A stretch of 52,735 nucleotides of DNA, taken from sequence record PZ662386.1; one strand, 5' to 3'. The stretch is from a phage. Made by a program: the position numbers and the translations under genes. Under the pieces are notes generated by a model, which saw only the letters and a list, made by a program, of their open reading frames with translations, made no database searches and had not been told where the DNA came from. This document shows positions 24,540-43,904 of the stretch, piece by piece (position 1 is the first letter of the stretch; each line of letters opens with the position of its first letter).

Positions 24540-25639
24540 TGGCTTACACTACCTTTTCACAAACCAAGAATAACCAACTATTAGAACCAATGTTCTTTGG
24601 TCAGAACGTTAACGTTGCTCGATATGACCAACAGAAGTACAGCATCTTCGAGAAGTTAATCGAGAAGCAGTTATCTTTCTTTTGGCGACCTGAAGAGGTT
24701 GATGTTAGCCAGGACCGAATTGACTATGCTGGTCTGCCTGAATGCGAGAAGCACATCTTTACCAGCAATTTACGATACCAAATCCTGCTTGATTCCATTC
24801 AAGGACGTGGACCAACCACAGTTTTGCTGCCAATTGTGAGCATTCCTGAACTGGAAACTTGGATTGAAACTTGGTCATTCTCGGAGACAATTCACTCCCG
24901 TTCTTACACACATATTATTCGTAATATTGTTACAGACCCGAGTGTCATTTTCGACGAAATTGTGGAGAATGAGCATATTAAAATGCGTGCAATCGGCATA
25001 TCCCAATATTATGACGAACTTCAACACCTAACTTCCATGTGGCATCTGCATGAAGATGAAGTAGACCTTCGTGAGCTTAAGAAGAAGCTATATTTATGCC
25101 TCATGTCCATTAATGCACTGGAAGCAATCCGCTTTTATGTCAGCTTTGCTTGCTCATTTGCCTTCGCTGAACGCAAGTTAATGGAAGGAAATGCCAAGAT
25201 TATTCGCTTAATTGCTCGTGATGAAGCACTCCATTTGACTGGAACTCAACACATGTTGAATCTTCTTGCAAGCGGGGTTGATGACCCAGAAATGGCCGAA
25301 ATTGCCAAAGAATGCCGTCAAGAATGCCAAATAATGTTCGAAAATGTGGCCCAACAAGAGAAAGATTGGGCTGATTATTTGTTCAAAGATGGCTCAATGA
25401 TTGGCTTAAATAAGCAAATTCTGTGCGGATATGTCGAATATATCACAAATATTCGTATGCAAGCAGTTGGATTGGATGCTCCATTCAAAGGTGCCACTAA
25501 CCCGATTCCTTGGATTAACGCATGGTTGAATTCGGATGCTGTACAAGTTGCTCCACAGGAAACGGAGATTAGTTCGTACCTTGTCGGGCAGATTGACTCC
25601 GAAGTTGACACCAATGCTCTAGGCGGATTTGAACTATGA
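24539..25639 (+). CDS. nrdB: ribonucleotide reductase small subunit (class I beta)
   Basis: Iron-ligand motifs [16 protein letters not shown] and [13 protein letters not shown]; 366 aa. Confidence 0.9.
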
Positions 25640-25814
25640 TTGGATATGGTGAAGGCTGACGTTTGTCAGTTAATATGCGAGAAGAGATTCGATGCGTTAT
25701 CGTCGTTTCTCTTTGAGCTAGAATAAAACAAGTAAATTAAATATTTATTATTCCCAATATTGCTACAATATTGAGAGCAATATTAGGAATGCGTAAAGTT
25801 AAAACCAAATGGTA

Positions 25815-25871
25815 CATGGTCGGTCAACTGTACCTGGATAGAAATTCGTTCATGGTCGGTCAGCTGTATCT
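25815..25871 (+). repeat. two copies of a 21-bp direct repeat
   Basis: CATGGTCGGTCAACTGTACCT and CATGGTCGGTCAGCTGTATCT 36 bp apart. Confidence 0.6.
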
Positions 25872-25962
25872 CGCCGAAATTTGTTCGAACAGTTGTCTGA
25901 CTATGAAATAATTTTTTTTTTATAATTTTTTTTTTTATTTTCAATATTGCTACAGAATTAAT

Positions 25963-26040
25963 GAGACTAGAATTCGTAACAAAGCTACGAGACTCGAATT
26001 GTTACGATATTAACGAGACTCAATCTGTGACAATATTATA
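25963..26040 (+). repeat. three tandem 26-bp iteron-like repeats (GAGACT-NGAAT core)
   Basis: GAGACT at 25963, 25989, 26015 with 26-bp period; adjacent poly-T tracts at 25911-25943. Confidence 0.55.
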
Positions 26041-26218
26041 ATCTTATTTTTGGGCCAGCGGGGAGGGGAAGCCCAACGTCCTATCGGACTTAAAATACGG
26101 TCCCTACTCCAACTTTTTCCTACAGCCTATCGGCTTTCAAACAACACCAAGTTAGGCGCTTCGCTTATGGGTCAAGGTCAAAGTCTCCGTGCTGTTGTAA
26201 CAATGGCACAGGTTTGTG

Positions 26219-26236
26219 ATATTAGTTGGACGTGAA
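26219..26236 (+). promoter_or_regulatory. conserved promoter-like motif (candidate phage-RNAP promoter)
   Basis: ATATTAGTTGGACGTGAA, member of the ACATTAGTTGGATGTGAA family; 67 nt upstream of RNAP gene. Confidence 0.4.
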
Positions 26237-26302
26237 TTGTGTAATGGCTACGCTATTATAATCCGTTTCAGTTAAATCATACACAATCTTGGAGACTTAC
26301 AA

Positions 26303-28243
26303 ATGACTACTATCACCACTCAAACTATCAAATCCGTTGTTCCTGCTATCACTGCTCTGGTATACCGTGCCAAAGAGAAACAGAACTATATGCAGCCTCA
26401 GACTTGTGCTATTGCTGCCTTAGCCATCTTCAAGATGATGACGTCTTTCACTCGTGATGACGTTGTTCCTGCCATCGCGATGGTTGAACTGGCTTCTGCT
26501 TCTATTGCTGATGCCAACCGTTATAACAACGATTTGAAAGCAATGCACTATGTTGACCCAGCTATCAACCTCATTGGTCTGGCTAAGCACTTTGGCTTCA
26601 TCACCATGAACGAAGACAAGTCATTCCAACAGACTGACACATGGGTTGAACTGGTTACAACCAAAGACACCGCAGTGCCATTCACTGAGCGTGTTACATC
26701 TGAATCTCGTCGCAAGCCTTTCGTTAAAGGTGGCAAGGTTAAGCCATCTAAGACTCTGAAAGCTGCAATCGAATTCCTGCAAGATACTGAGTACCATGTG
26801 GAGACTGAGATGGTTCGCATCATCCAGTCCATGCTTGAGCAACGTACTTATGGTGGCTTGCAGATGCCAGAAGCAATCCAGACTGAACTCCATGTTTGGA
26901 ACAATGCTGTAGCAATGATGAATCAGGACACACTGTATTCTGACTACTTTGCTGATAACCGTGGTCGCCTGTATCATGTAGCATGTGCTGGTCCTAACCC
27001 ACAATCATCTGACTTTGCTCGTTGCTTGTATTCTCACAATGTTGAGAACATCGTTAAGAAGTTTAACGAAGATGGTTCTACTACCATTGCATACAATATG
27101 TTCATGGCAGAACTGGAAGACATTTCTGGTGGTGAATGGTGCACTGCTAAGCGTTTGACTTATGTTGCTCAGAATCCTGCTGGTTCACTTGCTCGCATGA
27201 TGAACATGCCTAAAGCTGAACGTCCTTCTAAGCCATTCACTTATGTTCGTCTGGCTCTGGATTGGTTCAAGTTTGAGACTACAGGTGAATGCGATTCTCG
27301 TGTAGGCTTTGGCTTAGATGCTAAATGCTCTGGTACTCAATATCTGGCATTCATTGCTGGCAATATGGAAATGGCTCGTGCAACAGGTCTGGTTGATTCT
27401 GAGACTAAAGCATCTGACCCATACCAGTTGAGTCTTCGTGAACTGTTGAAGCTGCTGGACAAGTCTTCAATGAAGCCATCTCCTGAAATCATGGAAGAGT
27501 TCTTGAATCCGAAAGCTGGTCGTAAGTTTATCAAAACTCCGTACATGGCTATTCAATACGGTGGTGGTAAAGCTGCATTAACTGGTTCTTCTGACTTCAT
27601 TAGCTACATGACAGAAGCTCTCCAGATTCCAGTTGAGAAAGCTGAGGCATTTGCTGAACTGTGTGTGGAAGCAATCCATAACGCATTGGGTGCCAAGATT
27701 AACATGTTCATCGAGAAAGCTGCTGATGCTGCATACAACCGTTGTGTTGAACTCAACAAAGAGTACATCACATACCGTCACACTGACGGTCAGGTTGTAA
27801 TGAAGCCTTGCTTCCCATCCCGTGAAATCTGTGAGGCATTCAGCATTCGTGTTGACTCTCAAACTCGTGTTATCTTTGGTCAGATTCAGGAGAATAAGCC
27901 TTGGACCATTCGTGAATCCAATCCAACTAAAGAAGAATTCAAGCGTACTTTCGTTGTTAACTACATTCAAGGTATTGACGCACTGGTTGCTCGTACTGTT
28001 GCAGTTAAAGCTAAAGAAGCTGGCCTTCGTGGTTTCACTTCAATCCATGATTGTTTCCGTTGCTGTTTGGCAGATGCTCCACGTATGATGGAAGTTATTC
28101 GTGCAGCATATGTTGAAATCTTTGTAACCAACAATCAATTCGAGAATCTGTCTAAGCAACTCGGTGGCATTCAGATGTATCATGAGAACATCGTAACCGA
28201 AGAGCTTCTGATGAGCGAACACGCTTACTACTTCTGTCAATAA
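26303..28243 (+). CDS. single-subunit RNA polymerase (T7-like, compact)
   Basis: T7 RNAP-like motifs DNRGRLY...NPQ, DAKCSGTQY, KTPYMAIQYGGG, SIHDCF; only 646 aa. Confidence 0.8.
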   Translation: MTTITTQTIKSVVPAITALVYRAKEKQNYMQPQTCAIAALAIFKMMTSFTRDDVVPAIAMVELASASIADANRYNNDLKAMHYVDPAINLIGLAKHFGFITMNEDKSFQQTDTWVELVTTKDTAVPFTERVTSESRRKPFVKGGKVKPSKTLKAAIEFLQDTEYHVETEMVRIIQSMLEQRTYGGLQMPEAIQTELHVWNNAVAMMNQDTLYSDYFADNRGRLYHVACAGPNPQSSDFARCLYSHNVENIVKKFNEDGSTTIAYNMFMAELEDISGGEWCTAKRLTYVAQNPAGSLARMMNMPKAERPSKPFTYVRLALDWFKFETTGECDSRVGFGLDAKCSGTQYLAFIAGNMEMARATGLVDSETKASDPYQLSLRELLKLLDKSSMKPSPEIMEEFLNPKAGRKFIKTPYMAIQYGGGKAALTGSSDFISYMTEALQIPVEKAEAFAELCVEAIHNALGAKINMFIEKAADAAYNRCVELNKEYITYRHTDGQVVMKPCFPSREICEAFSIRVDSQTRVIFGQIQENKPWTIRESNPTKEEFKRTFVVNYIQGIDALVARTVAVKAKEAGLRGFTSIHDCFRCCLADAPRMMEVIRAAYVEIFVTNNQFENLSKQLGGIQMYHENIVTEELLMSEHAYYFCQ

Positions 28244-28250
28244 GAGAAAC

Positions 28251-28294
28251 AGGGCTGTCATCGAAAGGTGATGGCCCTTTCTTTATTCTTTATT
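28251..28294 (+). terminator. rho-independent terminator after RNAP gene
   Basis: Imperfect GC stem (AGGGC...GATGGCCC) followed by TTTCTTTATTCTTTATT. Confidence 0.55.
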
Positions 28295-28334
28295 AAATAA
28301 ATCCTTTAATTCCCAATATTCGGACAATATTGTT

Positions 28335-29235
28335 GCATGTAATATTGTCCCGATATTCGACATTAGTTGGATGTGAAGTAAAAGAATACGGAGAAATATT
28401 CCGCATGTCATGTTGAATCATTCTAGAAACATTCAGCATGTCAGCTTTGAGTTACAGTGTTGTAATGATGTGGCAATCATTGAACTCCCTGGGAAGGCCA
28501 CCTACAGTTCCAGCAACCATGACACAGAGTAGGAATATCTATCCGAAACTTTGACTTCATCTGTAGCATGTTCAATTGCTCCAATATTGTTCCTTCTCCT
28601 ATTATCAAGGCCCACCCACAAGCCGGGAGATAACTTTAGCAAGACTGGAACTTTTGGACATGCTTCTTTCTTTCAATCAGAATTCGAAAGAAGAGAAGAA
28701 GTCGGACTAAGCCTCTCGTTTGCACGCAGAAGCCGCCCCGATTTTGAGCAACAAATATTGTGACAATTGCGTCGCAGTATGGCATGTAAATATTGCTACA
28801 AATTGGCATGTTGGAATGTGGCAGAATTGTTAGAGGACTAATCACCTCGAAGATACAATCGTCTACCAATCTGGCATGTTAATTTTGTAACAGTATTTGT
28901 GCCAATTTCGCATGTAATAGCTGTATCAGTAGTGACCCAATATTCTTGCAACCCGCATGAATACTGGCTTCCAGCCAAGCGAAGGCTTTATCATCGCATG
29001 TAATATTGTGACAATATTGGGATAAAACCCTTTATTTAAATCATTTAGTTTATTAATTAAATGGTCGGTTTTCTGTACATAGGTATTTAGCTGTTTGTGC
29101 CAAATACAAACAAGTTGGCTGCTTCTACAGAACTCCAGTGCTATAAATGTTCGTGCCAATCTGCTGCGATTTATCTCATTTGGCGGGGTAATATTGTATT
29201 AGATTGGCATGTCATTCTTTCGATTAGTTGCATGT
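28335..29235 (+). repeat. array of about 12 degenerate GCATGT(A)A(T)ATTG-type repeats
   Basis: GCATGT at 28335, 28403, 28436, 28566, 28782, 28806, 28874, 28910, 28996, 29207, 29230 plus a GCATGA variant at 28955; interspersed CAATATTG palindromes. Confidence 0.6.
28360..28377 (+). promoter_or_regulatory. conserved promoter-like motif
   Basis: ACATTAGTTGGATGTGAA exact consensus copy. Confidence 0.4.
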
Positions 29236-29238
29236 GAA
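29221..29238 (+). promoter_or_regulatory. conserved promoter-like motif (variant)
   Basis: CGATTAGTTGCATGTGAA; about 180 nt upstream of the first early ORF. Confidence 0.35.
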
Positions 29239-29419
29239 TAAGACCAAATCTCTGTAAATTCTGTGACAGATTTTAGAGAGATTATGTCTCCAAGCTAATC
29301 ATTGTAGTTCTTCGGCACTTAATGTGTCACATACTCCCTACAACTTTAAGGTGGATTGAGGTAAGACAAGACCTCCACAATCGTTCTGTAGGGAGTTTTC
29401 TTTAACTTGGGAGAATAAA

Positions 29420-29668
29420 ATGGATACTGTGACTAAAGCTGCTTACTTTAAAGACTTGTCAGATGGTCAAATATTTTCTATTCGCTCTGTAAAGTGGATT
29501 AAAGTAAATGAATCAGACAAGTACAATGCTGTAAAGTTCTTTGATTCAAGCAAGGCATGTACTTTTAGTGACAATATTGTTGTAAATATTGAAGTCGAAT
29601 TAGAGCCAGATGATTCAAATGATGAAATCATTCTGCGTAAAACTGTTGGATACACTAAAGGATTCTGA
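29420..29668 (+). CDS. hypothetical early protein
   Basis: 82-aa ORF with RBS; first of a tightly packed, overlap-coupled early gene block. Confidence 0.5.
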   Translation: MDTVTKAAYFKDLSDGQIFSIRSVKWIKVNESDKYNAVKFFDSSKACTFSDNIVVNIEVELEPDDSNDEIILRKTVGYTKGF

Positions 29669-37388: not shown

Positions 37389-37620
37389 TTTAAATATTGC
37401 TGAACTTGAGGCGGGATTGATTGTTCACCACCAGCCTCGAAACACTTTCTATCGTATTCTTGGGCCTACAAAGATTAAAACTCACTGCGGAAGTTGGGTG
37501 GATGGGTTTGCTTACCAAGAGGTGAAGAAGTACGGGGACCATACTTTCTTAAGTATTGATTCCTCTACTATCTACACACGACCGAAAGAGCTATTCGACT
37601 CAGACTGGAAAACACTATAG
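37381..37620 (+). CDS. hypothetical protein
   Basis: 79-aa ORF from ATG 37381 overlapping upstream stop. Confidence 0.35.
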   Translation: MRDLNIAELEAGLIVHHQPRNTFYRILGPTKIKTHCGSWVDGFAYQEVKKYGDHTFLSIDSSTIYTRPKELFDSDWKTL

Positions 37621-37689
37621 TTCCAGGCGGGTTTCTTCGAAGTGCCAAGCGGGTTTTGTACTCGCATTGGCCTTCGGCTTTAGTCTGAA

Positions 37690-37707
37690 ACATTAGTGGG
37701 ATTTGAT
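37690..37707 (+). promoter_or_regulatory. conserved promoter-like motif (variant)
   Basis: ACATTAGTGGGATTTGAT preceded by TCTGAAAC, as in other copies. Confidence 0.35.
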
Positions 37708-37830
37708 TCTGACCACTTAGGGAAGAAAGGCATTATACACTTGTCGCCAAACGGGTGTCAAGCACTTTCTTCATTTATTTTAATTTATTCTTATTATTCT
37801 TTTTGTTTGGAATATTGGAATAATTCTGAA

Positions 37831-37848
37831 ACATTAATTGGAATTGAA
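37831..37848 (+). promoter_or_regulatory. conserved promoter-like motif (variant)
   Basis: ACATTAATTGGAATTGAA preceded by TTCTGAAAC. Confidence 0.35.
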
Positions 37849-38002
37849 TTAGTGTAATTCTGTCTGTACTCTTTTCCACTAGCAATTGTAGAGGGAGTCC
37901 ACTGCAATAAGCGCAGCCTCAAACAACCAAGTCTGGACAACTTGGGAAGAGAGTACAGCACAAAATTACATTAGTTTGAATTGAAACAACATCAGATAAG
38001 AG

Positions 38003-38067
38003 CTTTGTAACTAGGTAGTCCGTCTGGTACCAAGACGTGTGAGAACGTTCGATTCGTTCTACAAAGC
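38003..38067 (+). ncRNA. tRNA-like element lacking a canonical D-arm
   Basis: Perfect 7-bp acceptor-like stem CTTTGTA/TACAAAG, 5-bp hairpin with 7-nt loop (CGTCT GGTACCA AGACG), and T-arm GAACG TTCGATT CGTTC. Confidence 0.3.
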
Positions 38068-38618
38068 TCTTTTCGATGGAATGTTTCCATCATATACATT
38101 TAACTTTTAACATAGGCCAAAGGGCCGGAATACTTATCCACAGAAAGCTATTCACTTGTTATAGGCGATGTATTGGGATGAATTGGAACTAAATAAGCAA
38201 GCTGTTAGGGCTGAATAATTAGAGGGTTATGCCTCATGCTTATGTTAGTCATTCGAAAATAGGTTTGTGCCACAAGCTGCTGGTGCTCTGAGGAAGTCGG
38301 ACAAACAGGGCTTAGAGTGGCATAATCCGCACAAAACCGCGCCACCAGCTATGCCAAAGCAGGTGGATTGGGTGAATGTATTGGGAAGGGTTGCAAAGCC
38401 TCTGTGACACGCCTGAGCCGCAAGGCGACGACACTCATGTGATTAGCGTATCGCACCCTAACGGGAGTAACCCTTCGCCAATGCAGTTATCCAGAATTGA
38501 CACAAACGGTAGGCAGTGGCCCGATTTTCGGCCTTCCTGCGCTACCCTGTGGCCTGTTCCTGGGCCAAAAGATGAGAAGAGAAGTCACAAACACTGAATC
38601 GAAAATTGGAGAGTTCCT

Positions 38619-38939
38619 ATGATTCGCAAGCATTCTGCTAAAGTTTTGACGTTGAGAAATGTACTAATGTTCCCTTCAAGTGGGGAAGGAGAGGAAGAAA
38701 CAATCCACTTCGTTCTCGTTGGTGGGCGTTGGTACTATAACGGCACCAATTCTTTCCACGTAAGTCTGTCGGAGAAAGATGGATTCTGGAAGCACACCTT
38801 TAAGGAGTTGCTTGAAAGCAGTGCCAACTACACCCTTGCCGAAGTTAAGAAATATTTCTACTGCGGCCCAAACAAGTCCATGCAAATCGCAACTCGCAAT
38901 TGGACAACAAACCAACCGATTTACGGAGTTCCATTTTGA
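38619..38939 (+). CDS. hypothetical protein
   Basis: 106-aa ORF with GGAGAG RBS. Confidence 0.45.
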   Translation: MIRKHSAKVLTLRNVLMFPSSGEGEEETIHFVLVGGRWYYNGTNSFHVSLSEKDGFWKHTFKELLESSANYTLAEVKKYFYCGPNKSMQIATRNWTTNQPIYGVPF

Positions 38940-39226
38940 ACTTACAAGACAAATCTAAAGAAGAGTTGATTGAGATTATTCAGAAAGAGCACGAACTCGC
39001 TGGCATCACAATTAACTTTGAACTCCAGGCAATGCAAGCTGTTGCTTTGGGTCACGGTCTAATGGCTACACTCATTCATGCCAAGAATGTGTTGGGCGTT
39101 AACGACGAAAAATACCAAATTCTGGAGAAAGCTGCGCAAGGGCGGATTTCGCAGTGCTTGGTGACATTAGTTGATTTGGGAATCGACGCAGAAACTGCGA
39201 ACAAACGTATCCTACAAGGCCACTAA
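38900..39226 (+). CDS. hypothetical protein
   Basis: 108-aa ORF; start uncertain (ATG 38900 or TTG 38933 with GGAG RBS). Confidence 0.4.
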   Translation: MDNKPTDLRSSILNLQDKSKEELIEIIQKEHELAGITINFELQAMQAVALGHGLMATLIHAKNVLGVNDEKYQILEKAAQGRISQCLVTLVDLGIDAETANKRILQGH

Positions 39227-39227
39227 A

Positions 39228-39902
39228 ATGTCTTATCATGATGATGACAAAGAGATTGCACTATCAACGTGTAAGCAATGGCTCAATGATAATGATGCCG
39301 TCTATCTTGCCAAGGAAGATGTTATCATTATGTGGGTCCATTTTAATCCAGAATCGAAGCGCGGTGAGTGGCAACGCTACAAGATGAAAGAGGCTTGCCG
39401 CATAATTAAAGCCACACGCGCTGGCTTCTCTGCTATGAAGTACATCAAGCCAGAGATGCTAATGCTTGCTGCACAGGAAGAAGAACGTGCATATAAGCAA
39501 GCTGTTAAATCTCGTTCAACTGTTCCTCCAGAGTTCTTTAATTTGGAGCGCGCTGGACACTTCAACAATTTAGAAATGTTGACACTGTGCCTGTTGCAAG
39601 AATTAGTTGGAAGAGGACAAAACATTGAAGCTGTTTGTCTTGGAGAACTCATGAAAGAGTTGTTCTCGGCAAAGGGCTTTGCTGTGCCAAACCGAACTTT
39701 ACGCTGGAAATTGTTGCGAGCAGTCGCGCAAGAAGCTGGTGTAGTTGTTCGTGACAGAACAAACCGACTCACTGTAACTGGAGTTGGGCGTTTTGTAGCA
39801 ATCCAGATTGAGGGTTATGACGAATCAATCATCACTGAACTCACTGTCGCTGAGACAAAGGATTTAGTAAATAAAACACTAGAACGATTCAATAGATATT
39901 GA
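39228..39902 (+). CDS. hypothetical protein (224 aa)
   Basis: ATG at 39228 just after upstream stop; no motif recognised. Confidence 0.45.
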   Translation: MSYHDDDKEIALSTCKQWLNDNDAVYLAKEDVIIMWVHFNPESKRGEWQRYKMKEACRIIKATRAGFSAMKYIKPEMLMLAAQEEERAYKQAVKSRSTVPPEFFNLERAGHFNNLEMLTLCLLQELVGRGQNIEAVCLGELMKELFSAKGFAVPNRTLRWKLLRAVAQEAGVVVRDRTNRLTVTGVGRFVAIQIEGYDESIITELTVAETKDLVNKTLERFNRY

Positions 39903-39931
39903 GTCGTTTGACGAATCAGAGCAGTTCTGAA

Positions 39932-39949
39932 ACATTAGTTGGATGTGGA
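39932..39949 (+). promoter_or_regulatory. conserved promoter-like motif
   Basis: ACATTAGTTGGATGTGGA preceded by TTCTGAAAC; 77 nt upstream of the acidic-protein gene. Confidence 0.4.
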
Positions 39950-40025
39950 AAGAGAAAGGCTCTTTAATTTTATCTAAGTCACGTCACCGTGGCGTGCAAA
40001 ACTATTCAATATAAGGTATATACAA

Positions 40026-40364
40026 ATGGCTAAGATTGTAACCGTAACTCAGTACGAAGCTAACGATGGTTCACTGTTCCTGACCGAAGCAGAGTGTAAT
40101 GCACATGACTTCAAACTGGAAAACGGTGCTAAAATTGAGAAAGCTGCCGAAGCGTACCTGAACACCGTTGGCGCTATCGACCGTTCTCGCTCCATGCAGA
40201 AGAACACCATCGAGCAGTTCCTGGCATTCTACCTGCCGTGGGTTGAAGCTGGTGAGCCGGAAGTTGAGCGTACTAAGTTTGATACTCCGAAAGAAGCTAA
40301 AGTTGCTGACGCAGGTGTTGCCGAAGCTGCCGAAGCTGCTGTTGAAGAAGCTCCGGTATTCTAA
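40026..40364 (+). CDS. small acidic protein with high-expression codon usage
   Basis: 112 aa, Glu/Asp/Ala-rich C-terminus; first gene after a promoter-like motif. Confidence 0.5.
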   Translation: MAKIVTVTQYEANDGSLFLTEAECNAHDFKLENGAKIEKAAEAYLNTVGAIDRSRSMQKNTIEQFLAFYLPWVEAGEPEVERTKFDTPKEAKVADAGVAEAAEAAVEEAPVF

Positions 40365-41268
40365 GGTGCCAATGGCAAACTTGAGAGACTAAGCTAAATC
40401 GATCTGGCATGCACTGGAATATTTCCGGTGCTGCCTTGAACCCACTCCAGAGTGAGTGAGTGGGCTTCAATGAGCATTCTTGTGATTAGAGTTGGGAGGT
40501 AGGCCGATGCCCAAGCTCATGGCCCAGGCAAGAGTGTTCATTGAAGTAGTTTTCTGAGTCTTACGACGGGCCTAAACTGCCTGAAGTTATTGCGACTGTT
40601 TTATTCATTTAAAATAAATGCAAATGATTCTGAAATGCGAGTTGCGGCTTAATTAAATTTAAGTCCTCTCCGTGGTCTTCCAATCCCACGTAACCAAATT
40701 TGGCGCATTGTGGCTTCGAGATGTGATTAATAAATCGGAGCAATAATTAATTTGTATTCTGCGATGCAATGCAGGCTTAAGTCCCCAGTGCGCGTGGGGA
40801 TGTGACAGAGTACAAACTTAATTATGCAGTTGGATATTTCTAGAGGACGGACGAGCACACTGGAATGTCTTCAATTGGTTTAGTGTGAGAAGCTGTGCCA
40901 ATATGAAACGTAACTCCTTGGGGAAGTGCTCCTCTGGATTTCCCTCCACACAGGAATCTCAAGCCTGTGGCAGCGACTTCGAAGCTGCACTGCGTAACCT
41001 AAATTCACCCTAAAGTGAGTTGCCCTGAGTATGGAAATAAACTGCTCATAACCGATGGTATCTACAAAGGTAGATTAAATCAGGTTGCCTGTTGGTACTT
41101 GGGTTCAACACCTGCTTGCACTCGCAAAGTAGTGCCTCGTACCTGAGATGAAGTGAGTCGGGACCATCAATCCCACGTTATGTCAAAACACAGTAGGCGA
41201 CTCACGGATTCTACAAGCCTCGCAGTTCGGGAAAACCTGCGTTATCAAAACCCCCCCCACTCATATTT

Positions 41269-41361
41269 GGACGAGTAGCTCAGAAGGTCTGCTCCAGAGC
41301 TTAGTCAGGTAGAGCAATCTGTTCGACAGATGTGTCGTTGGTTCGAATCCAACCTCGTCCA
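41269..41361 (+). tRNA. tRNA-like gene, non-canonical (93 nt; possible UCG anticodon)
   Basis: Perfect 7-bp acceptor stem GGACGAG/CTCGTCC, TAGCTCAG...AGGTAGAGC D-arm interrupted by ~23 nt, canonical T-arm GTTGG TTCGAAT CCAAC; anticodon arm ambiguous. Confidence 0.4.
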
Positions 41362-41394
41362 CCTACTTTAATAATCCGCAACACTGGAGTCCTT

Positions 41395-41535
41395 ATGGAT
41401 TTTGATGCACTTGATAACTTAGACTTCGGTGCTGCCGAAGAAGCAATTGAAGAACTTAAGAAGAAGCAGGACGAAGAAGCAATCGTTCCTGGTGAGGGCG
41501 ATAACGACTGCTCAAGCGGTGCTTGCGCCATCTAA
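41395..41535 (+). CDS. small acidic protein
   Basis: 46-aa ORF with GGAG RBS immediately after the tRNA-like element. Confidence 0.3.
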   Translation: MDFDALDNLDFGAAEEAIEELKKKQDEEAIVPGEGDNDCSSGACAI

Positions 41536-41543
41536 GGTGATTT

Positions 41544-41780
41544 ATGCAACAGCTTAAATCAATAGTTCTTGGCGTCCTGACTGCATTTGGTATTCTAATT
41601 GCAGTGTTCCTCAAAGGCAAAAGCTCAGGCAAAGCCGAGGAGCGTCAGGAAGCCACAGAGAAGCAACTAGATTCATTAAAAGAATCTATCGAGATTAAAT
41701 CGCATGTTCAGAAAGAAGTGTCTAGCAGTTCTGATAGCAATGTCGATAGTGAGTTGCTCTCAAAGTGGGTTCGTAAGTGA
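41544..41780 (+). CDS. i-spanin-like protein (Rz-like)
   Basis: N-terminal TM helix then charged coiled-coil region; the lipoprotein ORF is embedded in its 3' end. Confidence 0.45.
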   Translation: MQQLKSIVLGVLTAFGILIAVFLKGKSSGKAEERQEATEKQLDSLKESIEIKSHVQKEVSSSSDSNVDSELLSKWVRK

Positions 41781-41913
41781 TTATTGCTTAATTGCACAAC
41801 CAATCTATTTGGATATTGCAGAAGTGAAAATCTTATCACGCGAAACCAAAACACAGATTTTAGTCCACAATGAAACGTGGGCACAAAAGTGTTCTCAACT
41901 TACCCGACAGTGA
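41704..41913 (+). CDS. o-spanin-like lipoprotein (Rz1-like)
   Basis: Signal peptide with lipobox-like IVSC; overlaps the 3' end of the upstream gene in another frame. Confidence 0.45.
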   Translation: MFRKKCLAVLIAMSIVSCSQSGFVSDYCLIAQPIYLDIAEVKILSRETKTQILVHNETWAQKCSQLTRQ

Positions 41914-42290
41914 GTGAACAAATGCTCGCCAACGCATTTCATTTGGCAGTCCGGTACGGGACTTTAAACACACGTATATCATAGTCGAGGGAGTGTGCGA
42001 CTTTAAATAACGAGACTCTAGCAACTTGTTGCGATGGTGGTGTAAGCCCACGCGTTTGGAAGCAGGACTCCAACTCAAACAAACCTGCAAATTGCTCTGG
42101 GCATAACAATTGAAATTGCTGCCTCGCATTGAACGCGAGAAAGTTCAGGTAGTCACTTCCTAGAACAGTGGCCGGGAACAGACCTAGACAAAGTGCTTGA
42201 GAACGTTAGCTCTGTCTTGCCAGCATTAATGGCACGTTGGCCGCGTAAAGGCCACAGCGTCTGACCAACGTATCGGTCAACTAATTCAAT

Positions 42291-42358
42291 GGGATTTTCG
42301 TATGTACGGGCTTGACCGTGGTGAAACGACCTGACTGGTTCGATTCCAGTAAATCCCC
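42291..42358 (+). ncRNA. tRNA-like element (68 nt, truncated cloverleaf)
   Basis: Perfect 7-bp acceptor-like stem GGGATTT/AAATCCC, T-arm ACTGG TTCGATT CCAGT, one internal hairpin. Confidence 0.3.
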
Positions 42359-42474
42359 CGAACAATGGATTCGTAGAGTTAATGAAACCTGCACAACGGG
42401 CTAGGTGAAACATCTGAGGCCGACCGTGTAATTGTGAACGTGGAGTTCACCGAATCCACCAAATCAATGGGCTA

Positions 42475-42541
42475 GTGCAAATGTCAGTCACTAGAAGATG
42501 TGTTGCAAAACGTCTTCCATGATGTGCAAAGTGTCAGTCAC
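42475..42541 (+). repeat. direct repeat GTGCAAA(T/GT)GTCAGTCAC x2
   Basis: Copies at 42475-42491 and 42524-42541; flanked by repeated CCACCAAAT. Confidence 0.5.
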
Positions 42542-42967
42542 GTGCCCACCAAATACGGAGACGCTCGAACTTCCAACCACCGCTGGGGAAGTAGAAGTTT
42601 GTAGAACTCCGCCATTTTCCTAACAGTTATGCCTCTGTTCAAAAGGCTCATGTAAGCGTCTGGCATACCGTAGCGATACGGCTTAGTTGCGCTGATTGTG
42701 ATGTGTCGAAAGAAAGTTCAGGCTTTCGTTTGAGTTCCTCCTCATCTCGAAGTTAGCTGTATTCAAAATACAGACTATGTTCCTATTCACATGAAATATG
42801 CAAGTCAGGGTTCTTAATGTTCAAACATGATGCGAGCATTAAGCGGGTTTATACTTTCCCCGATGGTCCCCATAAACAAGGTTGATTCACTTGGGCGGTT
42901 CGAATCAAATTTAATAAGTGTTTTGTAATAGTCAGGGCACTTACTTAAATTTTAACTGGAGAGAAAC

Positions 42968-43198
42968 ATGAAAACTGCTGAAATTGCCGAAGAGATTTAC
43001 AAGGCCGTAATAGCCAGCCAAATTACAAGTGAAGTTCTGCACATGAATATTGAAGAAGTTCGCAATGCCTTTGGTGGTTTTGCAATCTTGTCAATAGAAG
43101 CTGCGGAAGCACTGACAAGCACGTACAATCAACGCGAATATGAAAAGCGTTCTGTACTAAATGCGTCGATGAAAGAAATTCAGGCGTCATTAAAATAA
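42968..43198 (+). CDS. hypothetical protein
   Basis: 76-aa ORF with GGAGAG RBS, first gene of replication block. Confidence 0.45.
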   Translation: MKTAEIAEEIYKAVIASQITSEVLHMNIEEVRNAFGGFAILSIEAAEALTSTYNQREYEKRSVLNASMKEIQASLK

Positions 43199-43253
43199 TA
43201 CCATTATCATGGTGCGGAGCTAATTATCTCCCACCATATGAACCGGAGAGCAA

Positions 43254-43904
43254 ATGATTACTGCAACACTCGTTGACCACATGGGCAGCGACCTTACAAC
43301 TGTTAATGCTGCACGAGCTTCTTATGGTGCAGAGTCCCACGAGATGACATTGCGCGACGAAAAGCTCATTGAATTTCTCGCAAGGCATAAGCACAATACA
43401 CCTTTTGCCCATGCGTATGTAACATTACGCTGCACTGCACCAATCTTTGTTGCACGCCAACTTGGTAAGCACCAGGTGGGCTTTCGTTGGAACGAAGTTA
43501 GCCGTCGTTACAAAGATGGCGAAGCAATCGAAATTGAATGCTTTGTACCTGATGTGGTGTTTGGTCGTCCTGAAAAGTTGATGACTCAGACTGCACAACC
43601 ATTGCCACAGGATTTTGCTGACGATATTCACTATCGCATGGAAAGCCACAACAAGGCTTGCATTGCAGAATATGAAACGTTAATTGGTTTGGGGATTGCT
43701 CCAGAGCAAGCCCGAATGGTGTTGCCACAATCCATGATGACTACATGGATTTGGACTGGCTCTTTACTGGGCTGGGCCAACATGTACAAGCAACGCTCTA
43801 CAGAGCACGCCCAATATGAGGCACGTTTGTTTGCAAAAGAAGTCAATAAAATTATGTCAGAGTTGTTTCCTGTTTGCTGGGAGGCACTCATTAAACAGGA
43901 ATAA
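43254..43904 (+). CDS. ThyX-like flavin-dependent thymidylate synthase homolog (divergent motif)
   Basis: ThyX-like core FVARQLGKHQVGFRWNEVSRRY, with the canonical RHR apparently replaced by KHQ. Confidence 0.55.
   Translation: MITATLVDHMGSDLTTVNAARASYGAESHEMTLRDEKLIEFLARHKHNTPFAHAYVTLRCTAPIFVARQLGKHQVGFRWNEVSRRYKDGEAIEIECFVPDVVFGRPEKLMTQTAQPLPQDFADDIHYRMESHNKACIAEYETLIGLGIAPEQARMVLPQSMMTTWIWTGSLLGWANMYKQRSTEHAQYEARLFAKEVNKIMSELFPVCWEALIKQE

What the first reader, a model, noticed from the sequence alone, without database searches (positions are those of the whole stretch)
38003..42358. Three non-canonical tRNA-like elements with perfect acceptor stems and canonical T-arms
Elements at 41269-41361, 42291-42358 and 38003-38067 each pair a perfect 7-bp acceptor-type helix directly with a 5-bp stem carrying a TTCGAAT or TTCGATT loop. 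Their central regions do not fold into a standard cloverleaf: the first has a ~23-nt insertion in a TAGCTCAG...AGGTAGAGC D-arm, the others lack a clear D-arm. They could be unusual functional tRNAs, tRNA-derived regulatory RNAs, processing signals or decayed tRNA genes.
Basis: seen in the sequence. Interest (0 to 1): 0.6.

Follow-up and report, generated by a model that had tools for sequence, protein, structure and literature searches.

The report
tRNA-shaped RNA cassettes in phage
A phiEcoM-GJ1-like coliphage carries at least four small RNA genes that keep the acceptor end and corner of a tRNA but have no usable anticodon arm, so they probably act as tRNA-shaped processing and stability modules, not decoders, and they lie next to an undescribed tmRNA-like tag RNA.

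Summary
The window has exactly three sites with a 7-bp acceptor helix stacked on a 5-bp stem bearing a TTCGAAT or TTCGATT loop. All are on the coding strand in non-coding gaps, and simulated sequence gives 0.24 such sites.

The window is a Carltongylesvirus (Chaseviridae).

- **E1 (41269-41361):** this is the gene published as "tRNA-Arg" in phiEcoM-GJ1 and ST32. It is a tRNA-Arg(UCG)-like sequence with a 21-24-nt insertion in the D region and a 15-nt anticodon arm.
- **E2 (42291-42357):** it has no anticodon arm.
- **E3 (38003-38066):** it has a stub D arm and a central hairpin that is swapped between close relatives.

Related phage genera carry at least five more families of this kind. Their acceptor and T stems covary, while their centres are hypervariable. 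Each element is present or absent as a precise cassette among genomes more than 90% identical.

I also found a fourth, CCA-ended element (42367-42461). At 40583-40741 there is a tmRNA-like tag RNA (ANDSEMRVAA*) with two covarying pseudoknots and no tRNA-like domain. It occurs in more than 100 phage contigs and is absent from Rfam.

My best reading is tRNA-derived, non-decoding modules that are processed by host tRNA enzymes. No RNA-level data exist.

The parts
38003..38067 (+). E3: 64-nt tRNA-shaped element. It has a 7-bp acceptor (CTTTGTA/TACAAAG), an 11-nt D region with GG and at most a 3-bp stem, a central hairpin CGTCT-GGTACCA-AGACG, a 5-nt linker and a T arm GAACG-TTCGATT-CGTTC. No CCA is encoded.
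   Evidence: In alignment A4 the acceptor and T stems are 100% paired with 3 compensatory pairs. The central hairpin is swapped in SA91KD/ST32/Mangalitsa (GCGGCCGC apex) and in 4HA13 (GGCGCC apex). E3 is absent from MLP1, with the breakpoint at its 3' end.
41269..41363 (+). E1: 92-nt tRNA-Arg(UCG)-like element. It has acceptor GGACGAG/CTCGTCC, a D arm carrying a 21-24-nt insertion or partial duplication (TAGCTCAGAAGGT...AGCTTAGTCAGGTAGAGC), a 15-nt hairpin ATCTG-TTCGA-CAGAT, variable loop GTGTC, T arm GTTGG-TTCGAAT-CCAAC, discriminator A and CC.
   Evidence: The homologue is annotated 'tRNA-Arg, may contain an intron' in NC_010106 and 'tRNA-Arg of 95 bp' in ST32. ARAGORN calls Leu(cag) in GJ1 and Ser(gct) in SA91KD. 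E1 is absent from PYps3T.
42291..42358 (+). E2: 67-nt tRNA-shaped element without an anticodon arm. It has acceptor GGGATTT/AAATCCC, a D-like stem TCGT/ACGA closing ATGTA-[hairpin CGG-GCTTGA-CCG]-TGGTGAA, a 4-nt linker and T arm ACTGG-TTCGATT-CCAGT.
   Evidence: Homologues in Y2, SSEM1, Calisson and Faunus have covarying stems. E2 is a precise 76-nt indel relative to GJ1, SA91KD and MLP1, flanked by CAATGG.
42367..42461 (+). E4 (not in the finding): CCA-ended minihelix-type element. It has acceptor GGATTCG/CGAATCC, a conserved TAGAGTTAATGAAACC, a variable centre containing GGTGAAAC, and hairpin GTGAAC-GTGGA-GTTCAC stacked on the acceptor, followed by A-CCA.
   Evidence: It is conserved in three genera with a compensatory acceptor change (GGAGTCG/CGACTCC), and NCCA is encoded in 8 of 8 copies.
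40583..40741 (+). tmRNA-like tag RNA core. It holds the resume-codon context AAAUAAAU, the tag frame 40620-40652 (GCA AAT GAT TCT GAA ATG CGA GTT GCG GCT TAA = ANDSEMRVAA*) and two H-type pseudoknots. The first pairs 40671-75 with 40686-90 and 40680-83 with 40700-03. The second pairs 40704-08 with 40721-25 and 40713-19 with 40735-41. No tRNA-like domain is attached.
41208..41253 (+). Conserved hairpin motif (TTCTACAAGCCT-CGCAG-loop-CTGCG-TTATCAAAACC) that ends 15 nt before E1.
   Evidence: It is 78-89% identical in nine other Chaseviridae loci. In Faunus, 4HA13 and UViG_47563 it sits about 13 nt upstream of another tRNA-shaped element (FB family).
37826..37842 (+). Phage-RNA-polymerase promoter (CTGAAACATTAATTGGA) about 160 nt upstream of E3. 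Further copies lie at 37685-37701 and 39927-39943; the last of these drives the transcript that contains the tag RNA and E1.
   Evidence: 6 matches against 0.19 expected. The consensus comes from the promoters annotated in phiEcoM-GJ1 and SA91KD.

Best explanation
The three elements, plus a fourth at 42367-42461, are tRNA-gene-derived cassettes in the phage's non-coding RNA island. They have kept only the parts of a tRNA that the host tRNA-maturation machinery reads: the 12-bp acceptor/T coaxial helix, the T loop, a GG-containing D region and often an encoded CC(A).

They are transcribed on the coding strand from the phage-polymerase promoters, as parts of long transcripts. RNase P cuts at their 5' ends. 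Trimming and CCA repair define their 3' ends. This releases compact, nuclease-resistant tRNA-shaped RNAs. It also sets the ends of the flanking RNAs: the tmRNA-like tag RNA, other structured modules and the small mRNAs.

They do not decode codons. The centre of each molecule is free to vary and may carry a small payload hairpin.

Shown: the architecture, the covariation of the scaffold, the hypervariable or missing anticodon region, cassette-type presence and absence, the strand and the promoters.

Inferred: transcription, RNase P and 3' processing, stability, and any downstream role.
For: **The motif is real and rare.** It occurs 3 times against 0.24 expected, all on the + strand and all in non-coding gaps.

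**The scaffold is under selection.**
- In E3 the acceptor and T stems are 100% paired with 3 compensatory pairs, and the slid controls give none.
- The E2 acceptor differs completely between the window, Y2/SSEM1 and Faunus, yet it is always paired. The D-like stem changes TCGT/ACGA to CCGT/ACGG to CCAT/ATGG.
- Family FA shows three compensatory acceptor changes. E4 shows one.

**The decoding parts are not under selection.**
- E2 has no anticodon arm.
- The E3 hairpin is swapped wholesale among genomes more than 90% identical.
- E1 has a 15-nt arm. Its insertion exists in three versions. The loop differs in TH26, reading TAAGA.
- No single deletion turns E2 or E3 into a callable tRNA.

**Encoded 3' ends are common.** CCA or CC follows E4 (8 of 8 copies), FB and most E1 copies.

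**The elements behave as cassettes.** E2 is a 76-nt indel with CAATGG repeats. E1 is missing from PYps3T and E3 from MLP1, with breakpoints at the element borders.

**The context fits a tRNA island.** Relatives carry canonical tRNA-Cys (PM1, UViG_47563) or tRNA-Arg(CCU) (Myduc, UViG_2816). Myduc has a CDS annotated as a CCA-adding nucleotidyltransferase in this same region. Phage promoters lie upstream on the same strand.
Against: No RNA-level evidence is available. I found no RNA-seq, northern or end-mapping data for any Chaseviridae phage.

A pure processing role does not explain why Faunus has four such elements in tandem with nothing between them. It also does not explain why the elements are individually dispensable.

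E3 starts with C1 and has no CCA, which is less favourable for bacterial RNase P.

E1 could still be a working tRNA. CGA is used at 7.2 per 1000 codons in the phage ORFs, which from my memory is about twice the E. coli value. E1 homologues also pass the Rfam tRNA threshold.

Folding energies are not exceptional.
Confidence: 0.45

Rival explanations
1. E1 is a working elongator tRNA-Arg(UCG) that tolerates a hairpin inserted in its D loop and supplements decoding of CGA. E2 and E3 are something else.
For: - Deleting 20-22 nt yields tRNA-Arg(tcg) in 205 deletion variants.
- Full-length Rfam tRNA scores of 41.5-45.6 bits in TH26, GJ1 and SA91KD, with the insertion placed in the D loop.
- tRNAscan-SE calls it tRNA-Arg in published genomes.
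- CCA is encoded in GJ1, ST32, TH26, Mangalitsa and UViG_7747.
- CGA makes up 15% of Arg codons in the phage ORFs.
Against: - The anticodon arm is 15 nt, not 17: either a 5-nt loop, or a 4-bp stem with a G32-C38 closing pair.
- ARAGORN reads Leu(cag) or Ser(gct) in relatives and nothing in the window.
- The loop is TAAGA in TH26, although that record is flagged UNVERIFIED.
- Position 20 is U, whereas A20 is the main ArgRS identity element in E. coli (from my own knowledge).
- The insertion differs among three variants.
- E1 is deleted in PYps3T.
Confidence: 0.2
2. The elements are tRNA-shaped decoys or sponges. They bind host proteins that recognise the tRNA body, such as anti-phage tRNA nucleases, SmpB, EF-Tu, synthetases or the CCA enzyme, and so protect real tRNAs or disable a host pathway.
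For: - The scaffold is conserved and the anticodon is dispensable.
- Several different families occur per genome with rapid cassette turnover, as expected for counter-defence genes.
- E3 resembles a capped tmRNA tRNA-like domain: a D loop without a real stem, then a helix, then a T arm.
- Phage tRNAs are known to counter tRNA-targeting defences (PMC10264068, listed).
Against: The known anticodon nucleases read the anticodon loop, which these elements lack. No G3-U70 pair or other identity set is conserved. There are no binding data. No tmRNA model hit covers E1-E3.
Confidence: 0.15
3. The elements are decaying tRNA pseudogenes with no present function. They are kept only because the genomes are young and closely related.
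For: - E1 looks like a tRNA damaged by an internal partial duplication (GCTCAG direct repeat) and a shortened anticodon arm.
- All three elements are dispensable in some close relative.
- E2 and E3 score at background on covariance models.
Against: - Compensatory changes keep the acceptor, T and D-like stems paired between genera whose sequences are otherwise unalignable.
- No stem-breaking substitutions occur in 19 E3 pairs apart from the weak stems.
- The T loop and GG are retained in every copy.
- CCA is retained in 8 of 8 E4 copies.
Confidence: 0.1
4. The tRNA-shaped RNAs are the missing tRNA-like half of the neighbouring tag RNA. Together they would form a phage-encoded split (two-piece) tmRNA.
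For: - The tag RNA has a tmRNA-type tag frame and two covarying pseudoknots but no acceptor or T arm of its own.
- In each of the five relatives examined that carry the tag (Y2, Faunus, Fifi44, SSEM1, UViG_31418), and in the window, a tRNA-shaped element follows it within 220-650 nt.
- Several of these elements end in CCA.
Against: - Each tRNA-shaped element closes its own acceptor stem and central arm, so no strand is left free to pair with the tag RNA.
- None has G3-U70.
- Most of the more than 100 tag elements in other phages have no such neighbour within 600 nt.
- A candidate pairing between E4 and the invariant GUGAUUAAUAA loop does not covary (sequence inspection).
Confidence: 0.06

Closest known systems
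The 'tRNA-Arg' annotated in phiEcoM-GJ1, ST32, Tiny and other Carltongylesvirus genomes
   Same: E1 is this gene. The position is the same, and the sequence is about 90-100% identical outside the D insertion.
   Different: The published label comes from tRNAscan-SE alone. The window copy is called by neither ARAGORN nor Rfam at threshold. ARAGORN gives other identities in relatives. The anticodon arm is 2 nt short, and the D region carries a variable 21-24-nt insertion.
Phage tRNA islands (for example T4 and T5), including the T4 'species 1 and 2' stable tRNA-like RNAs of unknown function
   Same: Both are clusters of small RNA genes on one strand in a gene-poor region, variable between relatives, with tRNA-like ends. 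The T4 comparison rests on my memory of the 1970s literature. I did not test it here.
   Different: In this phage most members have lost the anticodon arm, while their acceptor and T stems still covary. In the genomes I examined, canonical tRNAs survive only in some genera (PM1, Myduc).
tRNA-like domain (TLD) of tmRNA
   Same: E3, and the 65-nt elements of SSEM1 and Calisson, have a 7-bp acceptor, a D region with GG but no real stem, a helix in place of the anticodon arm, and a T arm. A tmRNA-like tag RNA lies in the same island.
   Different: There is no G3-U70 pair, no link to the tag RNA and no Rfam tmRNA hit on the elements. The helix is capped.
tRNA-like processing signals and scaffolds (mitochondrial tRNA punctuation, the MALAT1 mascRNA, engineered tRNA scaffolds for RNA expression)
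   Same: A tRNA-shaped module whose job is to be cut out by RNase P and 3' enzymes, which defines the ends of neighbouring RNAs and stabilises itself. The decoding parts are dispensable.
   Different: Such a use has not, to my knowledge, been shown for a bacteriophage. Processing was not testable with these tools.
D-arm-lacking or armless mitochondrial tRNAs
   Same: Truncated D region (E3) or missing arm (E2), with the acceptor and T stems retained.
   Different: Mitochondrial tRNAs keep a 7-nt anticodon loop with U33 and do decode. E2 has no such arm, and the E3 loop is GGUACCA and is not conserved.

Membership tests
Canonical elongator tRNA (Rfam RF00005 / ARAGORN) | 7-bp acceptor stem stacked on a 5-bp T stem with a 7-nt T loop (TTCRANY) | tested here: met
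   All three elements meet it.
Canonical elongator tRNA (Rfam RF00005 / ARAGORN) | 5-bp anticodon stem with a 7-nt loop, U33 and purine 37 | tested here: not met
   E1 has a 15-nt arm. E2 has a 4-nt linker instead of an arm. The E3 loop is GGUACCA, with G33 and C37, and is replaced in relatives.
Canonical elongator tRNA (Rfam RF00005 / ARAGORN) | D arm: 3-4-bp stem with an 8-11-nt loop containing G18 G19 | tested here: inconclusive
   E1 has a good D arm (GCTT-AGTCAGGTA-GAGC) but 21-24 extra nt. E2 has a 4-bp stem with a hairpin inserted before GGTGAA. E3 has GG but only a 2-3-bp stem, which is unpaired in 3 of 5 sequences.
Canonical elongator tRNA (Rfam RF00005 / ARAGORN) | Score at or above the curated threshold (29 bits), or an ARAGORN call at default settings | tested here: not met
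   In the window: ARAGORN calls nothing, Rfam gathering gives nothing, E1 scores 27.9 bits and E2 and E3 are at background. E1 homologues in relatives do pass, at 41.5-45.6 bits.
Canonical elongator tRNA (Rfam RF00005 / ARAGORN) | Aminoacylation and use on the ribosome | not testable with these tools
   This needs acid-gel northern blots and in vitro charging.
tmRNA tRNA-like domain | G3-U70 pair in the acceptor stem (AlaRS identity) | tested here: not met
   The third pair is A-U in E1, G-C in E2, U-A in E3 and A-U in E4. No family in relatives has G-U at that position.
tmRNA tRNA-like domain | Acceptor and T arm joined through helix P2 to the tag-encoding domain, in one piece or two base-paired pieces | tested here: not met
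   Each element is a closed unit. The tag RNA core (40583-40741) has no acceptor or T arm. A 7-bp closure seen in Y2 (L003:5776-6171) is not conserved in SSEM1.
tmRNA (whole molecule), for the neighbouring tag RNA | Resume codon GCA plus a short tag frame ending in hydrophobic-Ala-Ala and a stop, followed by pseudoknots | tested here: met
   The frame ANDSEMRVAA* is kept in 19 tag variants. Three pseudoknot stems are at least 98% paired, with several pair types, in 104 distinct sequences. Caveat: the search pattern fixed the frame length and the last codon.
tmRNA (whole molecule), for the neighbouring tag RNA | Match to a tmRNA covariance model or an ARAGORN tmRNA call | tested here: not met
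   Rfam gives only sub-threshold local hits: tmRNA_permuted 20.8 bits (cut-off 47) and alpha_tmRNA 14.9 bits. ARAGORN finds it only at a relaxed threshold, with an implausible tRNA domain.
Bacterial Y RNA (YrlA) tRNA-like module | tRNA-like module whose acceptor-like stem is closed, with the ends forming the Ro-binding stem; Rfam match | tested here: not met
   The topology is the opposite: the acceptor is open and the central arm is closed. No Rfam hit at E<=10.
RNase P / tRNA-type processing signal | Cleavage by RNase P at the base of a 12-bp acceptor/T helix | not testable with these tools
   The structural requirement (7+5 bp, with RCC(A) in E1 and E4) is present. Cleavage itself needs an experiment.

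The most novel reading that the evidence does not exclude
The non-coding island encodes a phage-run, split version of the trans-translation apparatus. One part is a tag RNA that has the messenger half of tmRNA (ANDSEMRVAA* and two pseudoknots) but no tRNA half. The other part is a set of CCA-ended or TLD-like tRNA-shaped RNAs. These would either supply the tRNA half in trans or soak up SmpB, EF-Tu and synthetases, letting the phage retarget or shut down host ribosome rescue.
Probability: 0.07. Interest if true: 0.9.

Novelty: new variant of a known kind. Interest (0 to 1): 0.6.

Why it matters
Phage tRNA genes are usually explained by codon supply or, more recently, by escape from tRNA-cleaving defences. 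Here a whole family of lytic enterobacterial phages keeps tRNA-shaped RNAs whose scaffolds are under selection but which cannot decode. That points to a third use of the tRNA fold in phages: processing, stability or mimicry.

It also shows that the routine "one tRNA-Arg" line in Chaseviridae genome papers rests on a non-canonical gene.

The same island holds an unannotated tmRNA-like tag RNA. It is present in more than 100 viral contigs, and 86 complete E. coli genomes carry at least 80% of a related prophage-type copy. If it is functional, it opens a testable link between phages and ribosome rescue.

Tried and rejected
- **Relaxed ARAGORN modes** (introns, low thresholds, mitochondrial). These gave only inconsistent calls for E1 (Thr with intron, 4-base anticodon) and many obvious false positives.
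- **One-piece tmRNA ending at the E1 T arm.** I considered a molecule running from a second GGACGAG at 40849 to 41363, as ARAGORN proposes at a relaxed threshold. I rejected it because the real tag frame lies upstream of 40849 and the frame ARAGORN proposes is not tmRNA-like.
- **Acceptor/T closure around the tag RNA.** I looked in 111 homologous loci. It is present by chance level only, and the Y2 case is not shared by SSEM1.
- **Dropping the T-loop requirement to find more elements.** This gave 49 and 36 hits against about 30 in shuffles, so it is not specific. Only E4 was kept, on comparative grounds.
- **Self-complementary apex sequences.** Examples are UGGUACCA, UGCGGCCGCA, CGGCGCCG, UGUGCGCACA, UGCGUACGCA and UUUGUCGACAAA, which might be kissing-dimer sites. 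They recur in 8 of 21 elements, but each is only weakly significant (p 0.02-0.2) and they are absent from E1 and from the window's E2. I leave this as a lead.
- **MAFFT alignment of the E2 family.** It misaligned the 5' halves, so I compared stems by hand.
- **Pfam scan of the ten neighbouring ORFs.** Nothing RNA-related turned up.
- **Literature searches** for phage tmRNA-like RNAs, for the tag peptides and for Chaseviridae transcriptomes. These found nothing relevant.
- **No covariance model of my own** was built.

Full report
**What the window is.** Every long ORF is on the + strand. The region 37600-43300 is 90-97% identical to Escherichia phages of the phiEcoM-GJ1 group (Chaseviridae, Carltongylesvirus), with weaker matches to Erwinia, Pantoea, Pectobacterium, Proteus and Aeromonas relatives. 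These phages encode their own T7-like RNA polymerase. Its promoter consensus, taken from the phiEcoM-GJ1 and SA91KD annotation, matches at 37685, 37826 and 39927 on the + strand. The three elements lie in non-coding stretches of about 1 kb: roughly 37620-38619, 40364-41396 and 41900-43254.

**Checking the observation.** My scan looked for a 5-bp stem, a TTCRANN loop and a directly stacked 7-bp acceptor. It finds exactly three sites in the window, all on the + strand. Simulated sequences average 0.24 sites and never reach three. ARAGORN at default calls no tRNA and Rfam at gathering thresholds reports nothing. With permissive thresholds, E1 scores 27.9 bits on the tRNA model, where the cut-off is 29. 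E2 scores 18.8 bits on tRNA-Sec at E=5. E3 matches nothing. Folding-energy z-scores are ordinary. It is far above chance because of its architecture, not its stability.

**E1 (41269-41361).**
- It is the gene annotated "tRNA-Arg, may contain an intron" in phiEcoM-GJ1 and "tRNA-Arg of 95 bp" in ST32. It is presumably also the single tRNA-Arg reported for phage Tiny, although I did not compare that sequence.
- Deleting 20-22 nt just after position 8-9 makes ARAGORN call a canonical tRNA-Arg(tcg).
- Infernal aligns the near-identical TH26 copy full-length at 41.5 bits, with a 24-nt insertion in the D loop. GJ1 and SA91KD score 41.8 and 45.6 bits. The window copy is reported only as a 27.9-bit local hit, apparently a heuristic effect.
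- The gene is nevertheless odd. The putative anticodon arm is 15 nt (ATCTG-TTCGA-CAGAT).
- The inserted segment looks like a partial duplication of the D arm flanked by GCTCAG/GCTTAG. It exists in three versions: window type, GJ1/ST32 type, and SA91KD with a 6-nt deletion.
- ARAGORN reads Leu(cag) in GJ1 and Ser(gct) in SA91KD.
- The loop is TAAGA in the (unverified) TH26 record.
- The whole element is missing from Yersinia phage PYps3T.
- CGA makes up 15% of Arg codons in the phage, so a UCG-anticodon tRNA would have something to do. I keep that as a rival explanation.

**E2 (42291-42357).**
- It has acceptor GGGATTT/AAATCCC. A 4-bp stem TCGT/ACGA encloses ATGTA, a small hairpin and TGGTGAA. 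A 4-nt linker and the T arm follow. There is no anticodon arm.
- The same design recurs in Erwinia phages Y2 and Calisson, Pantoea phage SSEM1 and Erwinia phage Faunus, with the motifs YCGTATGTR ... GGTGAAACGR.
- In those phages the acceptor sequences are entirely different but still paired. The D-like and T stems covary, the inserted hairpin has a different size, and in Y2 and SSEM1 a mini-hairpin sits where an anticodon arm would be.
- Within Carltongylesvirus, E2 is a clean 76-nt insertion. It is present in the window and in phage flopper and absent from GJ1, SA91KD and MLP1. It is bounded by the repeat CAATGG.
- Its T arm is identical to that of the canonical tRNA-Cys(GCA) of Pectobacterium phage PM1 and of a metagenomic relative, which sit at the syntenic position upstream of the thymidylate synthase gene.

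**E3 (38003-38066).**
- It has a 7-bp acceptor and an 11-nt D region with GG and at most three weak pairs. A central hairpin, a 5-nt linker and a T arm follow.
- In a five-sequence alignment the acceptor and T stems are paired in every cell, with three compensatory pairs. Sliding the partners gives none. The D and central stems are not maintained.
- The central hairpin is simply different in SA91KD/ST32/Mangalitsa and in 4HA13.
- E3 has no encoded CCA, starts with C or U, lies about 160 nt downstream of a phage promoter, and is absent from MLP1 with a breakpoint exactly at its 3' end.

**A wider set of tRNA-shaped elements.**
- Scanning about 20 Chaseviridae loci shows more families that ARAGORN does not call at default. 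Family FA occurs in Y2, Faunus and UViG_31418. It has a normal D arm and a central arm of 23-51 nt.
- Family FB occurs in Faunus, 4HA13 and UViG_47563.
- A 103-nt Faunus element has an extended arm ending in a Phe-like loop.
- There are also 65-nt and 74-nt elements in SSEM1 and Calisson.
- Faunus carries four such elements in tandem. The Faunus FA copy just passes the Rfam tRNA threshold at 31.1 bits.
- In every family the acceptor and T stems are intact and covary, while the centre varies in length and sequence.
- Directly after E2 I found a fourth window element, E4 (42367-42461). It has acceptor GGATTCG/CGAATCC and a conserved UAGAGUUAAUGAAACC. A variable centre and a plain hairpin stacked on the acceptor follow, ending in A-CCA.
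- E4 is conserved in three genera, with a compensatory acceptor change and NCCA in all eight copies examined.
- Some relatives have ordinary tRNAs in the same island. Proteus phage Myduc has a CDS annotated as a CCA-adding nucleotidyltransferase there.

**How I read it.** The parts that are conserved and covary are those read by RNase P, the 3' trimming and CCA enzymes, EF-Tu and some synthetases. The parts needed for decoding are missing, shortened or freely exchanged. The elements sit on the transcribed strand, downstream of phage promoters, among other structured non-coding modules. They come and go as cassettes. My best explanation (confidence 0.45) is that they are tRNA-derived modules which the host tRNA-maturation system cuts out. 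This yields stable tRNA-shaped RNAs and defines the ends of neighbouring RNAs. All steps after the DNA sequence are inferred.

The rivals are:
- a working tRNA-Arg, for E1 only (0.2);
- decoys for tRNA-binding host factors (0.15);
- inert pseudogenes (0.1), which the compensatory changes disfavour;
- the tRNA half of a split tmRNA (0.06).

**The neighbouring tag RNA.**
- Weak Rfam hits to tmRNA models led me to 40583-40741. The context AAAUAAAU is followed by GCA AAU GAU UCU GAA AUG CGA GUU GCG GCU UAA (ANDSEMRVAA*), at 40620-40652.
- The segment is conserved in Erwinia and Pantoea relatives. It is also conserved in unrelated Klebsiella phages Magnus (Ackermannviridae) and VLCpiS13b, with tags such as ANDNEMRAAA, ANDDVVLMAA and ANEEVYLAVA.
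- In 104 distinct sequences three stems are at least 98% paired, with two or three pair types each. Together with a fourth, length-variable stem they form two H-type pseudoknots after the stop codon.
- No acceptor or T arm closes the molecule.
- Rfam has no family for it. PGAP leaves it unannotated in E. coli, where 86 of 5426 complete genomes carry at least 80% of a related copy.
- The tag strings occur in no paper of the searchable library.
- Caveat: the search pattern fixed the frame length, the first three codons and the last codon. Only the internal codons and the pseudoknots are independent evidence.
- I could not establish how a tmRNA messenger domain without a tRNA domain would work. 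The split-system idea is stated as the novel case, at low probability.

**Verdict.** Its interpretation is partly right. E1 is already in the literature, under a questionable label. E2, E3 and the newly noted E4 belong to a previously undescribed set of covarying, non-decoding tRNA-shaped cassettes in Chaseviridae. I rate the finding as a new variant of a known kind, with interest 0.6. Much of that interest comes from the comparative pattern and from the tag RNA next door.

Noticed in passing
window 40583-40741 (tag frame 40620-40652): A tmRNA-like RNA without a tRNA-like domain. It has resume codon GCA, the 10-codon tag ANDSEMRVAA plus a stop, and two covarying pseudoknots. Homologues occur in Chaseviridae, Ackermannviridae, other Klebsiella and E. 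coli (pro)phages and more than 100 IMG/VR contigs. It is absent from Rfam, unannotated by PGAP, and the tag strings are not in the searchable literature.
   Followed up: partly
window 42367-42461: A fourth tRNA-like element (E4) directly after E2. It has a 7-bp acceptor GGATTCG/CGAATCC, a plain 6-bp hairpin instead of a T arm, and an encoded A-CCA. It is conserved across three genera with a compensatory acceptor change.
   Followed up: partly
window 42285-42290, 42361-42366 and 42466-42471: The short repeat (AAT)CAATGG marks the junctions of the E2 and E4 cassettes. GJ1 has E4 only, flopper has E2 only, and the window has both. This suggests cassette exchange by recombination at the repeat. 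The 5' end of E2 (GGGATTTTCGTA) also resembles that of E4 (GGATTCGTA).
   Followed up: partly
window 41208-41253: A hairpin motif TTCTACAAGCCT-CGCAG-(loop)-CTGCG-TTATCAAAACC, 78-89% identical in nine other Chaseviridae loci. In the window and in three other phages it ends 13-15 nt before a tRNA-shaped element. It may be a promoter, a terminator or a processing site.
   Followed up: no
window 40494-40535, 40845-40935 and 40440-40475; also L003, L005, L006 and L007 around their tag elements: Other structured-looking modules recur in the relatives but in a different order relative to the tag RNA, so the island is modular. Examples are GGGAGGTAGGCCGATGCCC...GGCCCAGG, GGACG..GCACAC...GGAAGTGC, and CCCACTC...GAGTGGGCTTCAATGA.
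   Followed up: no
window 40849-40855: A second copy of GGACGAG, 420 nt upstream of E1, could also pair with the E1 3' acceptor strand. It is conserved in close relatives. ARAGORN at a relaxed threshold builds a 515-nt 'tmRNA' from it, which I judged spurious.
   Followed up: partly
window 37761-37732, minus strand: A perfect sigma-70 consensus promoter (TTGACA, 18 nt, TATAAT) points leftwards, antisense to all genes. It lies between the two phage promoters that precede E3.
   Followed up: no
central hairpins of E3 (window 38024-38031), L002:907-969, L144:2810-2873, L003:6355-6465, L007:8146-8219 and L005:6908-7012: The apex of the variable hairpin is often an 8-12-nt perfect GC-rich palindrome: TGGTACCA, TGCGGCCGCA, CGGCGCCG, TGCGTACGCA, TTTGTCGACAAA. 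These could support kissing-loop dimers. Each is only weakly significant on its own.
   Followed up: partly
L141 (Proteus phage Myduc) 7592-8161 and 6615-6690: This Chaseviridae relative has a CDS annotated as a CCA-adding nucleotidyltransferase where the window has thymidylate synthase. It also has a canonical tRNA-Arg(CCU).
   Followed up: no
L008 (Klebsiella phage Magnus) 4805-5019 and 2600-5600: There is an Rfam hit to sRNA STnc100 (52.9 bits). A 2.5-kb stretch annotated only with 30-50-codon ORFs lies between the tag RNA and two tRNAs, and is probably another non-coding RNA island.
   Followed up: no
window 28243-29420 and 25639-26303: Two further gaps of about 0.7-1.2 kb contain no convincing ORF. 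I did not examine them beyond the whole-window Rfam and ARAGORN scans, which found nothing.
   Followed up: no
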